From the NCBI RefSeq assembly GCF_033153115.1, contig NW_026889750.1, forward strand, positions 36,580,001 to 36,644,000: a stretch of DNA of 64,000 bases. Direction: 5' to 3'. Of the stretch, positions 51,201-57,200 are shown in pieces (position 1 is the first letter of the stretch; each line of letters opens with the position of its first letter). Source of the DNA: Saccostrea echinata (Eukaryota). The position numbers and the translations under genes are program-made. The notes beneath the pieces are model-generated. The model did not search any database and had not been told where the DNA came from. It saw only the letters and a program-made list of their open reading frames with translations.

Positions 51201-54200
51201 ATGATATCAAACTGTCCATCACAGATAGGGAAACAGCCCCAGCCCACCACACGGTCAGTCGCCACGACAGCACCTCTCAGCAGAAACAACTCAAACATCA
51301 GGATCATTCCGGGTCTCAGAGAGGCTTTGGCTGGTAGAACAGTAAACACACTCTGGTCCATCTATCAAGACAATTATAAATCTTTTTACCATGTCTAAAT
51401 TATCCAGTGCATTCAATATTTCTTCTGTTGAACTTATGATGAAAATATGGTTTATGTTCATTTTTACTACAAGTATTTTTTTTTACATTTATTAGAAGTT
51501 GTAAGTAAATTAGATAATGAATTTGCAAATTTTTTTCTAAGAATAGTTTAAAGAAAACTGACTTTCATTTCCACATTGTAATATCTGCCATCATGGTTTA
51601 CAGGCAATGTTGCTGCACCCCAAGTTTGACCTTTCAACTTTGACCACCTCATGTTGTGGCCTCCAAGACGATTGTACAGGGACACCATCATGACATATCT
51701 TCCCCCTGTATTAATAAGAAAACAATGAAATTAAATTCATTCCTTTGTTCCAAATTCCTTCTATGTGATTACCAAGAACCCTCCATGAAAAACGTTATCA
51801 GCAACATGTCTTGCTTCTATTCAACTTCTAGTTTGCCTTCCATCATTGTTTCAAACAGGTAGAGTAACAACTTGTTAAAATTGCTAAAATTAAAAAGATT
51901 CTTTTCAATAATTTAAATCTTCTTCATGTTTTTATATTTAAAATAACCACTAATCCATCGGTTGATTATGACCTGGAAGTTTGTCCCTGACCCCTCTCAG
52001 ACACATAAGCTTGATCTGGATTGGTTGTGGTGTTTTGTTCCAGTCGACCTTCCATCTCCGGCTCTGACTTCCTCCATACACCCCATCAGCCAACATCAGG
52101 TCCCCATAAAATGTCTGGACCTCCCCCTTCCTCCTCTCCAGGACGCTGATCAGCTGACTCTCAGCTCGTCTGTAGGCTCGATGGAGACGGTCCATTAGCA
52201 GTTTCTCTCTCTGTCTCAAGATCTCCTAAAAAAAAGATGTGTGTGGGAGAAAACCATAATATTTTGATTTACCTTTGAGAAACTTACTGCTCTAGGAAGT
52301 TTATGAAAATTTCATATCAATATCATCTGGTACTACAAGAAAACATAATGGAGTGTTTTGCTAACCTCTCTCTTGGCTATGTCTGTCCTGCTGTCCTTAG
52401 TCACTTTAGCCATCCTTTGTTTGGCTTCCTCCTCGCGTCTGAGAATCTCTTCCTGAAGTTTTCTCTTTCTTTCAGCTTCCTGATCTAAGTATCTAGACAA
52501 AGTAAGACAAAGTCAGTCATATTTCTCAGCTTCTTAGGCTTGGCATTTAGCCAGTCGGAGTGACATGACTTACTATGTGCTATGTCATATGAATCTCATG
52601 TGAATGTGAATCTCATAATAAGATAACTTATAGTATATGAATCAGAACAGTGAAATGACTTACTGTATTTGAATCTCATAATGAGATAACTTACTGTATG
52701 TGCTAGCTTATAGTGAGATAATTTACTGTTTGTGAACTTCTTAAAGTGAGTTGACTTACTGTATATGTTAACTTGTGTCACAGATAACTTACTGTACATG
52801 TTAACTTGTTGTGTCAGAGATAGCTTACTGTACATGTTAACTTGTTGTGTCAGAGATAACTTACTGTACATGTTAACTTGTTGTGTCAGAGATAACTTAT
52901 GTTAACTTGTTGTGTCACAGATAACTTACTGTACATGTTAACTTGTTGTGTCAGAGATAGCTTACTGTACATGTTAACTTGTGTCACAGATAATTTACTG
53001 TACATGTTAACTTGTAGTGTCAGAGATAGCTTACTGTACATGTTAACTTGTTGTGTCACAGATAACTTACTGTACATGTTAACTTGTTGTGTCAGAGATA
53101 ACTTACTGTACATGTTAACTTGTTGTGTCAGAGATAACTTACTGTACATGTTAACTTGTTGTGTCAGAGATAACTTATGTTAACTTGTTGTGTCACAGAT
53201 AACTTACTGTACATGTTAACTTGTTGTGTCAGAGATAGCTTACTGTACATGTTAACTTGTTGTGTCAGAGATAACTTACTGTACATGTTAACTTGTTGTG
53301 TCAGAGATAGCTTACTGTACATGTTAACTTGTTGTGTCAGAGATAACTTACTGTACATATTAACTTGTTGTGTCAGAGATAGCTTACTGTACATGTTAAC
53401 TTGTTGTGTCACAGATAACTTACTGTACATGTTAACTTGTTGTGTCAGAGATAACTTACTGTACATGTTAACTTGCAGTGTCACAGATAATTTACTGTAC
53501 ATGTTAACTTGTAGTGTCAGAGATAGCTTACTGTACATGTTAACTTGTAGTGTCACAGATAATTTACTGTACATGTTAACATGTAGACTTATAGTTGTAG
53601 TGTTAGAGATAACTTACTGAATGTGCTCATCTCGAAGTCTCTTTTCCTCCTCTTGAACCTCCTCCAGAGAGATTTGACCAAGCATGACCACATCATCCTT
53701 AACTCCTTCTTCAAAGTCATTCAGATAGGCTGGATACTCTTCCTTCTCCATTGCGAGCTTTAATTCTAGCATGAACAATTCATATCATAATATTCATATT
53801 TTGTATTAAAAAATTTCATGTCTGAGAAACATCCAAAATGTACCTCAAAATGTACCTCTTCTATCACAGTATGATGGATATCACATTTTTTTTTCATCAT
53901 TAATCATAAGATATCATTGCAAAAGAAAATCAAGGAAAATTTTTATTCATACTAACATATTTACCTGAGATCTTCTCATATTTGGGAACGTGTTCTTCCC
54001 TGGTGAATAGAGCTGGGGGATCCCTCTTGGTGACAAGGTCTGTCTCCCCCTCCTCTAGACTGTCTATGAGGCGATACAAGTCAGGAAGTGTATCATCTCT
54101 GGGTGGAGGTACTGAAGAAAAGCAAGAGTGACCTCCCTTATTAGCACATCAAAGCTCTACACTCAGTACACAGATTTATTACAAATTTCTATATCCAGAT

Positions 54201-57200
54201 AAAGAAATCACTCCACTGCTTACATTCAAATCACACATTTGAAAAGGAAAAATATTGTGCAGCACTTCAGTGCACTGCAAAATAAACTAGAAAAAGATTC
54301 TCTTTTTGCAATAGTGAATTATAAATCTCAAATTCAAAGTGTGTAAACTGTAGCTGCAAATGCTGTGCAACCATTTCTCAAGTATTTTCAACCATTTTAT
54401 AAGTATTTTTTTCATTGTTTTAAATCTAAGTAAATACAAAACATACAACCTATGGATTGCTCTGCATCATCTGAAAATTCATACATGTATATCTGTATTG
54501 TTTAAATCATTGTACAATAAAAATACTTCAGAATTAATCCATTGACATTAGGATTAATCTAATTTTTTTATAGACCAAGATATATATTAATCCTGCCTCC
54601 AATAAAAATCTTGAAATTTCATTGGTCAAGATTATGCATGTACTTTAAAACAATATCATGCCCCTCCGTGTGATCTACTGACCCGCTATCAAATTCCATA
54701 TACAGTTAAACTTCATTATCTCGAACACCAATATCTTGAGTACTATGGATAAGTCAAAGTAATTTTGCAGTCCCAACGACCTATTATAAAAGTATTTACA
54801 TACTACCCCACTATGTGTCCACATACGTAATATTATCCTGCTACAGATACATTTGTAGAATAATTATTGGCTAATCACAGATCACATTACAACCTGAATT
54901 TTTTTTATACACCAGGGGTGGATTAAATATCAGGCATAAGACTCAGTTCTGCCTCACCATTTTACACTCTGGATGACTCCATATTAGGTCCCAAACTAAC
55001 TGTGTAATGAATAGCAGATAAAACCTAACACAAAACTAAAATTCAAATCAAATACAATCCCAACAAAAAACAGAAAAATATGACATTGTATTAATGTGCA
55101 AAAATTGTCATACAGATTGATTTGAAAAATGAAACTAGAAGCAAAAATTAATTAACTATAGGAAGAAACTATGCATTAGCTGGTGAATTTTTAAAATCCA
55201 GTTGTTTACAAAAACTGCACTTTCATTAGCAATTGAGTAAAATATCTTACTCAACAATTAAACATTTCTTCTGCTTTCACTTTTACACTACAATGTTTTT
55301 TTTTAATTTGGGGGAAAGGGGGGGGGGGGGGCGTAAGTGTTTGCTTTTTGTCTGCCTGTTTGTTTATCTTTTAAAGGGGTGTTCACCTCCTCTGACTTCT
55401 TGTGTTGACTGCATTAATAACTGATGTACATGTATTAAGTCACATTTATGATCTCCTTGTGCTTACCATACTGAATTTCCTCCTCTTCTTCTGTGGTATC
55501 AAGTGTCATGAACTCCATAGTTTCCTTAGTTTTTACTGAGGTCTGAAAAGAAACAGTGAACACCTTAGTTATTTCTTCATATCATACAGACATATATTGT
55601 TCTTAGACAACTTTTATGATTGCAAATTTATCCTAACTATAAATAACACAAAGTAGACTACAACAAAATAGTACCTAGTCTGTCTAATCTAGTACATCTA
55701 ACAATGATGTGCATTGAAATGGTAAAATTTTCCTTTTGAATGAAATGTTTTGAGCTTTCTTTTGAATGTTGGTTGTTACATAATGAAAAGCCCATTTCTT
55801 CAGAAAGGAGAAAATGGTATATTGTAGGGAGAGTGGATGGGAAAATGTCAGTCTGTACTGAGAGAGAAAGAGCCCTCAATTGTTGTAAATTTTCTCACAT
55901 GCTTCATATAAATACAACAGCCAATCAGACTGGCAGTCTACATATTAAACACTGGGTAAACATGTGTTCAATCAATACCCATGTTGTTATAACTTCAATA
56001 AACATGACAAATACTTATATGTAATAATGTATATATTTGTTGCAATATATGTACTTGAGTTTTACAGAAACAGGGATCGAGTCTCTCACTCTCTCCCCCA
56101 ACTTCCTAAAATCCCCATTTCAGCAAAACTGACATTGCTAATCTCAGAGAGTGGGGTGTACATCTTAAAACACTGCGACGAATATTGGTTTCTCAATTCT
56201 AAAGAAATGGGTGTGTCATTAATAATATTATGTAACAACTGACATTCGATAAGAAAGACCCAAATGATCCATTCAAACAAAAAATTTTCTACTTCAATGT
56301 CCATCATATTGTACCAGGATTGATTACAAATACTGATATGATTACTTAAAGGTCAAGTTTGATGAAATGTAAAATTACATGTAAATGATTAACCAGTTCT
56401 AATTAATTACATTATATGAATAATAGTACCTGTACTGTAGATGTTTTTGTTGATACCTCTCCATTTTGCTCATCCTTCATAACATCTAAGGTGAAGGAAA
56501 AAAGTATGCATCATCAAAACAAATCATACTTAGTATGAATCCAATCCTATTATCAGATTTATATTTAATTACATGGAGAAATCTAATAATTGGTGAAAAT
56601 GTAAAATGTAACATCTAATAGGTATTCCATCTTTTTACAATTTTTCAAGTGCACATGAAAACAAAAACAAAACAAAGCTAATTGAAAAGAGAAAAATATT
56701 CAATGTCTGGCTACAGTATCATGAAATACTTAAGACTTCATCTTTTAAATTAAATTAAGATATAATTAATTTATCATAAACGATACACATGTATATACCT
56801 GTCTTTGAGTCTGATTTGTTATCTTCTGTTATCACTGTTTCTCTATTTTCTTCCTCCTCTGTGGGAATTTTTGTTCTTACTTTCTTTCCTATAAAATTTT
56901 GAATACACAAAAATATATAACAAAAAAACAAAATGAAATCAACTACGACTTTTGTGTGTTACTGTGGATGTAAATTTAGATTAGTCTGGAATTTTGCAAT
57001 GCTAGGTATCATCAAAGTGCAAAATAAAAGTATGAAACTTTTGCATAAATACCTTTTTTGTGGGGTAACTTGGGTTTTTCTGCCATATTGGGAACTTGAC
57101 TACATGAAAGCAAAAATATGCAGCTTAATTATTTTATCATATTCCAAATGACTTTTATTGTCCTTTATATAAACATGAAAAAAAAGAAAACAATATTTAC

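What the first reader, a model, noticed from the sequence alone, without database searches (positions are those of the whole stretch)
52560..53620. Intronic minisatellite made of copies of the gene's own 5' splice site
The true donor on the minus strand reads ATTCA|GTAAGTTATCTCTAACACTACAAC. The repeat unit reads GTACA|GTAAGTTATCTCTGACACAACAAG (variants GTAAGC, GTAAAT). The real donor is therefore the terminal diverged copy, followed by >20 equally good U1-binding sites every 36 nt. Read-through of the first donor gives CAG TAA, so using any downstream copy adds a premature stop. Inference: copy number could tune productive splicing versus NMD, act as a U1 decoy array, or allow stepwise splicing.
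Basis: partly seen in the sequence, partly recalled or inferred. Interest (0 to 1): 0.7.

Follow-up and report, generated by a model that had tools for sequence, protein, structure and literature searches.

The report
Repeated splice donor in oyster intron
In a bivalve, likely an oyster, the end of one exon of an OFCC1-like gene and its splice signal are copied 26 more times into the next intron; the assembled transcripts splice only at the first signal, so the copies are likely harmless, and arrays of this known kind begin at many other exon ends in the same genome.

Summary
Intron 6 (1,125 nt, minus strand) of a 22-exon OFCC1-like gene is nearly filled by a 36-nt array plus older 31-33-nt units, giving 26 extra GT donor copies. 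An old unit matches the last 10 exon bases at 9 of 10, so the array likely arose by duplication across the junction. Contigs of likely RNA runs from two studies, and a relative's contig, splice at the first donor; no other donor was seen, but contigs drop rare forms. The regulatory ideas get no support: there is no AG|GT site, and donor hexamers in 19 such arrays are conserved like the rest of the unit (0.912 vs 0.900). The type is published: human F7 VNTR, lancelet 'mirages', chicken 'exon stuttering'. This scan also met it before on other DNA (145 notes, at least 42 genomes, two in this one). Added here is a genome-wide lean: GTAAGT-periodic matches number 2,476 against 498 for the reversed control, acceptor TTTCAG shows no excess (721 vs 785), and 13 of 19 such arrays start at an exon-like end against 68 of 581 ordinary GTAAGT sites. 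Verdict: new member of a known kind, likely neutral.

The parts
45221..57086 (-). OFCC1-like gene, 22 coding exons, 1,060 aa
   Evidence: exon chain open from ATG to stop, built on joints and pieces of likely RNA contigs; homologs across molluscs, one named OFCC1 candidate
53618..53765 (-). coding exon 6 (148 nt), ends in phase 2
   Evidence: joints 53965/53765 and 53618/52492
53612..53620 (-). working 5' splice site, first copy of the array
   Evidence: only donor seen in contigs; U1 duplex -5.6 vs gene median -6.2
53614..53616 (-). in-frame TAA reached on read-through (codon 185 of 1,060)
53568..53617 (-). first intronic unit, 50 nt, diverged edge unit
52760..53567 (-). young 36-nt array, 23 units: 11 GTAAGT, 7 GTAAGC, 3 GTAAAT, 2 without GT (starting 53177 and 52899)
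52560..52759 (-). older 31-33-nt units with GT at 52759, 52726, 52694, 52663 and 52573; the unit ending before 52694 matches the last 10 exon bases 9 of 10
   Evidence: background 3.6e-5 per site for 9 of 10
52493..52559 (-). unrepeated 3' end of intron 6 with the acceptor AG
52366..52492 (-). coding exon 7 (127 nt)

Best explanation
This is a minisatellite whose first unit spans the exon 6 splice donor of an OFCC1-like gene; transcripts splice at the first donor, and the 26 downstream copies are likely silent, neutral passengers. Shown: array anatomy, exon-end homology of an old unit, use of the first donor. Inferred: a stretch of about 32 nt (roughly 10 exon bases plus 20 intron bases) was duplicated head to tail by slippage or unequal exchange; one unit later became the 36-nt unit and expanded, leaving diverged units at both edges. 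Inferred from human F7: the spliceosome takes the most upstream donor of a series, and rare use of a later copy would hit the stop at codon 185 and be cleared by NMD, so the array costs little and persists. The locus is one of an estimated 2,200 (95% range 450-6,350) such arrays in this genome.
For: First-donor joint in 2 studies and in a relative, no other donor joint. Old unit matches the exon end 9 of 10. All 26 copies have A at -3 where the working donor has T, and the relative's contig has A there, a synonymous Ile change (table 5c), so the copies likely keep the older exon letter. A block with a GT-less unit occurs twice. In 19 GTAAGT arrays (this one included; L018 skipped) downstream hexamer identity is 0.912 vs 0.900 for other positions; 15 control arrays give 0.932 vs 0.916. 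Unit lengths are multiples of 3 in 7 of 19, as chance gives (p 0.81). An Arf-gene array has lost the GT in its later copies (L189). Published precedent: F7, where only the most upstream site is used and copy number has no effect; lancelet mirages do not disturb splicing.
Against: The runs are contigs, guessed to be RNA, and drop rare and NMD-sensitive forms. In human 6-16 and CBS two proximal copies are also used (PMC1557585 introduction). The first donor is slightly weaker than the gene's median and, by the gene-trained matrix, weaker than every copy. The three nearest copies are all weakened, which could reflect selection against leakage; across arrays copies 2-3 show hexamer 0.856 vs other 0.890 (22 copies), control 0.867 vs 0.877 (10 copies), too few to tell.
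Confidence: 0.8

Rival explanations
1. Copy number tunes expression: downstream donors are used at an appreciable rate, the products are destroyed by NMD, and longer alleles give less productive mRNA.
For: 15 of 26 copies pair with U1 as well as the working donor; every downstream product carries a stop at codon 185; proximal copies are used in 6-16 and CBS; NMD would hide the products from contigs.
Against: No downstream joint and no contig over 52844-53269 in 6 of 6 runs laid (weak, contigs). F7 copy-number constructs showed no effect. No excess conservation of donors. Polymorphism here is not shown.
Confidence: 0.12
2. The array is kept as a U1-loading or decoy platform that strengthens a weak exon end or protects the transcript from premature 3' cleavage.
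For: The first donor has no canonical exonic pairing and is below the gene's median; donor arrays are over-represented genome-wide.
Against: Donor hexamers decay like the rest of the unit; GT-less units spread; the intron has 0 AATAAA/ATTAAA signals to mask.
Confidence: 0.05
3. The copies serve stepwise (recursive) removal of the intron.
For: Each unit holds an AG and a GT, and a CTGAC about 23 nt before the AG in many units (sequence).
Against: AG and GT share one G, so splicing to the AG leaves no GT; AGGT count 0; internal AGs score below all 21 real acceptors; the intron is only 1.1 kb.
Confidence: 0.02

Closest known systems
Human F7 intron 7 37-bp VNTR, with 6-16, CBS intron 13, lamin B2 and PDGF intron 4 minisatellites (Borensztajn et al. 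2006, PMC1557585; seen: abstract, synopsis, introduction, results part 3 of 6, one term search)
   Same: First monomer spans the exon-intron boundary, donor reiterated downstream, unit of 37 vs 36 nt, most upstream site used.
   Different: 26 extra donors here against 4-8 in F7 (25 in 6-16, 15-20 repeats in CBS); copies here are mixed in strength and layered (old 32-nt, young 36-nt); invertebrate; length polymorphism not shown here.
Lancelet 'mirage' minisatellites: Adh3, globins, troponin C, PGBD5 (PMC3087553, 7 passages seen; PMC3902484, 1 passage seen)
   Same: [quoted passage not shown]
   Different: Mirages are reported at both 5' and 3' boundaries; in this genome only a donor-side excess was found with the motifs tested.
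Chicken dot-chromosome 'exon stuttering' (Hron et al. 2026, PMC12954441; seen: abstract, section 7 whole, passages)
   Same: Local expansion of a piece that includes an exon edge and splice site into the neighbouring intron; genome-wide screen (236 introns in 115 genes).
   Different: GC-rich avian microchromosomes against an AT-rich bivalve; the parts read give no donor-versus-acceptor split (supplements not read).

Membership tests
Boundary-spanning minisatellite (F7-type VNTR / mirage / exon stuttering) | Tandem array whose first unit spans an exon-intron boundary | tested here: met
   TRF array; donor at 53618 in contigs; exon-end match 9 of 10 in an old unit
Boundary-spanning minisatellite (F7-type VNTR / mirage / exon stuttering) | Splice donor reiterated in the intron | tested here: met
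   26 downstream GT copies, 15 with GTAAGT
Boundary-spanning minisatellite (F7-type VNTR / mirage / exon stuttering) | Normal mRNA made from the most upstream donor | tested here: met
   joint 53618/52492 in X1, X2 and X6
Boundary-spanning minisatellite (F7-type VNTR / mirage / exon stuttering) | Downstream copies silent or used only near the first | tested here: inconclusive
   no downstream joint in 6 runs, but contigs drop rare forms
Boundary-spanning minisatellite (F7-type VNTR / mirage / exon stuttering) | Copy number varies between individuals | not testable with these tools
   no DNA run listed; one assembly only
Recursive splice sites | Acceptor AG directly followed by donor GT, with a pyrimidine tract (definition from own knowledge) | tested here: not met
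   0 AGGT in the intron; internal AG scores -1.9 to 1.8 vs 2.5 to 10.6
Regulated unproductive splicing (AS-NMD) | Alternative product carries a premature stop upstream of later junctions | tested here: met
   stop at codon 185 of 1,060, exon 6 of 22; generic for a phase-2 GTAA intron
Regulated unproductive splicing (AS-NMD) | Alternative site is used and rises on NMD inhibition | not testable with these tools
   only contigs served
Regulated unproductive splicing (AS-NMD) | Alternative site under purifying selection | tested here: not met
   hexamer 0.912 vs 0.900 rest of unit, like controls; this array 0.91 vs 0.95

The most novel reading that the evidence does not exclude
Splice donors are hotspots of minisatellite birth in this genome: about 2,000 donors carry an array built from their own junction, a GTAAGT at an exon end is some 16 times likelier (odds) to head an array than chance gives, and acceptors show no such excess. 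That would point to a polarised, transcription- or splicing-linked mutational process at 5' splice sites and supply hundreds of natural tests of first-donor choice and of intron gain by duplication.
Probability: 0.45. Interest if true: 0.6.

Novelty: new member of a known kind. Interest (0 to 1): 0.3.

Why it matters
The locus alone matters little: it is a further, fairly long example of a published repeat type. The genome-wide lean toward donors is the useful part. If it holds with annotation, it would show where minisatellites are born and make two open questions testable at scale in an invertebrate: whether upstream-first donor choice is general, and whether such arrays seed new introns or splice variants.

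Tried and rejected
No RNA holder was listed on record; the six runs are guessed RNA contigs, and lack of cover over the array is not used as evidence of silence. Pfam did not name the gene (0 of 12 exon peptides over cut-off). Recursive splicing rejected. In-frame backup donors rejected: 7 of 19 unit lengths divisible by 3. A dispersed satellite or transposon origin of the unit was not supported: 6 exact matches, all local (exact search only). Acceptor-side arrays: 9 finder hits among 91 random arrays, about what the null gives (4.8 expected for the first 49); none was checked by Pfam and two are the antisense of donor-side exons. The second random sample (600 kb of contigs C2-C6 and C29) gave 0 donor arrays among 42, against 3 clear ones among 49 in 800 kb of C1; two further donor-side hits were not counted (L058 starts beside the donor, L093 doubtful). 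The random sample alone (3 of 91) does not show enrichment. MaxEntScan was not available; U1 duplex energy and a 21-site matrix stood in and disagree. Paper searches for oyster or Saccostrea cases (0 papers) and for a genome-wide donor bias (7 papers, none on this by title and abstract start) found nothing; the library lacks most subscription papers, and no supplements were read.

Full report
What is there. On the minus strand the window holds a 22-exon gene of 1,060 codons (57086 to 45221), assembled from joints and pieces of likely RNA contigs. The 84-residue exon 8 peptide finds 45 homologs among 103 candidates, 85-87% identical in mussel and scallop; one source names its protein 'Orofacial cleft 1 candidate', most others are uncharacterised. 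The organism is thus a bivalve; 'oyster' is taken from earlier scan notes on this genome and was not checked here. Intron 6 runs 53617 to 52493 (1,125 nt). TRF finds a 36-nt array of 23.6 copies and an older 32-nt array behind it. Parsed unit by unit the intron is one 50-nt edge unit, 23 units of about 36 nt, five older donor-bearing units, and about 70 unrepeated bases before the acceptor.

Which donor is used. Contigs of X1 and X2 (two studies) join 53618 to 52492 with GT..AG ends; X3 and X4 had no contig across the intron. At 80% likeness a relative, X6, shows the same joint. No joint from a downstream copy was listed in 6 of 6 runs. These are contigs of runs only guessed to be RNA and they drop rare forms, so this shows the main form and not exclusive use.

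Origin. The old unit ending before 52694 matches the last 10 exon bases at 9 of 10 and continues with 12 matching intron bases; 9 of 10 has a background rate of 3.6e-5 per site in 800 kb of random genome. The young units match 5-6 of 10. All 26 copies have A at position -3 where the working donor has T; the relative's contig reads A there (table 5c, read as plus-strand letters), a synonymous Ile change. By parsimony the array was seeded before the exon changed (inference). A block holding a GT-less unit is present twice, which fits blind turnover by slippage or unequal exchange.

Donor strength. With the U1 5' end taken from the genome the first donor pairs at -5.6 kcal/mol (median of the gene's 21 donors -6.2). 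Of 26 copies 15 equal it, 7 give -4.5 and 4 give -1.9; the first equal copy lies 158 nt downstream. A matrix trained on the gene's own 21 donors ranks all 26 at or above the first.

Premature stop: correct (codon 185) but generic for a phase-2 intron starting GTAA. Stepwise splicing: not met, since AG and GT share one G, AGGT occurs 0 times, and internal AGs score below all 21 real acceptors. Tuning or decoy: in 19 GTAAGT arrays (this one and 18 of the 19 fetched; first copy and three ascertainment copies left out) the hexamer matches its consensus at 0.912 against 0.900 for the rest of the unit; 15 control arrays ascertained the same way give 0.932 against 0.916. So there is no sign of selection for or against the extra donors. 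Copies 2-3 are slightly more decayed (0.856, 22 copies) but controls show 0.867 (10 copies).

Precedent. Borensztajn et al. 2006 (PMC1557585) describe the human F7 37-bp VNTR whose first unit spans the exon 7 donor: only the most upstream site is used, stronger downstream sites compete only when perfect, and 1 to 12 copies do not change splicing. Their introduction lists 6-16 (25 pseudo-sites) and CBS, where two proximal copies are also used, and lamin B2 and PDGF, where none is. Lancelet 'mirages' are the same structure in an invertebrate (PMC3087553; PMC3902484). Chicken 'exon stuttering' is a genome-wide version (PMC12954441). PMC10078293 (passages) added nothing on this type. This scan has 145 earlier notes with these words in at least 42 genomes and two of this kind among 8 shown for this genome; these are unchecked AI notes.

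The class in this genome. A pattern of three GTAAGT spaced 30-38 nt matches 2,476 times; the reversed control TGAATG 498, ATAAGT 816 and TGAATA 554, acceptor-like TTTCAG 721 and GACTTT 785. GTAAGT is the rarest of the six in 1.4 Mb of random genome (643 against 1,120-1,849), so per background site its excess is about 5- to 13-fold. Matches are inflated by long arrays; at locus level contig C1 has 20 GTAAGT loci in its first 51.6 Mb against 7 TGAATG loci. All 19 other GTAAGT loci were fetched; each has its own unit. A simple exon finder trained on this window scored an exon ending at the array's 5' edge (p at most 0.05) in 13 of 19, against 3 of 20 control loci (20 of the 23 listed were fetched) and 68 of 581 non-array GTAAGT sites (odds ratio 16, p 3e-8; 31 of 217 in the array-rich parts of C1, odds ratio 13). 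Pfam confirmed 5 of the 14 upstream peptides tested from this set (Ras, MENTAL, cadherin, RFX, collagen); 2 more tested later had no hit. Four of 17 ATAAGT arrays also start at exon-like ends, and in an Arf gene the later copies have lost the GT. In evenly spaced random stretches, 3 of 91 arrays (period 10-100, at least 3 copies) clearly span a donor, all three with Pfam hits (TMEM117, SBF2, GDA1_CD39) and all in C1; the second sample had 0 of 42. This gives about 2,200 genome-wide (450-6,350). The arrays are regional: 0 of 20 lie in C1 11.1-32.5 Mb (p 2e-5, interval chosen after seeing the data). Survival explains why donor arrays outlast exon or acceptor arrays (inference: a later donor is ignored, while an earlier duplicate acceptor would be used). 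Survival alone does not explain an excess over non-donor sites, which needs a local mutational bias or a higher birth rate inside genes. Limits: no annotation, one acceptor motif, one period range, only C1 loci inspected for the GTAAGT set, and a small training set. Searches found no paper on this bias or on oyster cases; supplements of the chicken and lancelet papers were not read and may hold a donor-acceptor split.

Verdict. Real, correctly located, and a new member of a known kind; likely neutral (0.8). Interest 0.3 for the locus; the donor-hotspot reading has probability 0.45 and would merit 0.6.

Noticed in passing
G000:C1 loci L007-L025, L046:5960-6656, L104:2881-3572, L115:5348-5486: Many unrelated genes (Ras, MENTAL, cadherin, RFX, collagen, TMEM117, SBF2 and GDA1_CD39 families by Pfam) carry arrays built from their own exon end and donor; one reaches 76 copies (L025).
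   Followed up: partly
L189:2031-2108 (minus) and the array behind it: Arf-family exon followed by a 15-nt array whose first copies keep the GT and later copies read AT instead.
   Followed up: partly
L058:4308-4470, L013, L021, L201: Arrays that start at or just behind a donor rather than across it, suggesting intron 5' ends in general are prone to duplication.
   Followed up: no
G000:C1 11.1-32.5 Mb: No GTAAGT- or TGAATG-periodic array beyond 11.5 Mb and before 32.5 Mb; such arrays cluster toward the contig ends.
   Followed up: partly
window 43608-44674: Very young 53-nt array (20 copies, 99% matches) about 550 nt behind the gene's stop codon; a second 53-nt array with another unit at 42825-43141.
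   Followed up: no
window 20857-24981, 27552-28088, 29270-29532: 46-nt satellite in three blocks (89.5, 11.7 and 5.7 copies), with 21-nt arrays beside two of them.
   Followed up: no
window 14222-15295 (+): Open frame of about 350 codons without intron; its translation looks like a seven-transmembrane receptor (by eye, not searched).
   Followed up: no
window 33011-33400: Two identical 160-nt copies followed by a 37-nt T run; recent duplication or assembly artefact.
   Followed up: no
G000:C29:39.33 Mb, C159, C313: U1 snRNA genes in tandem arrays with a period of about 2.15 kb (42 scored copies, same score).
   Followed up: no
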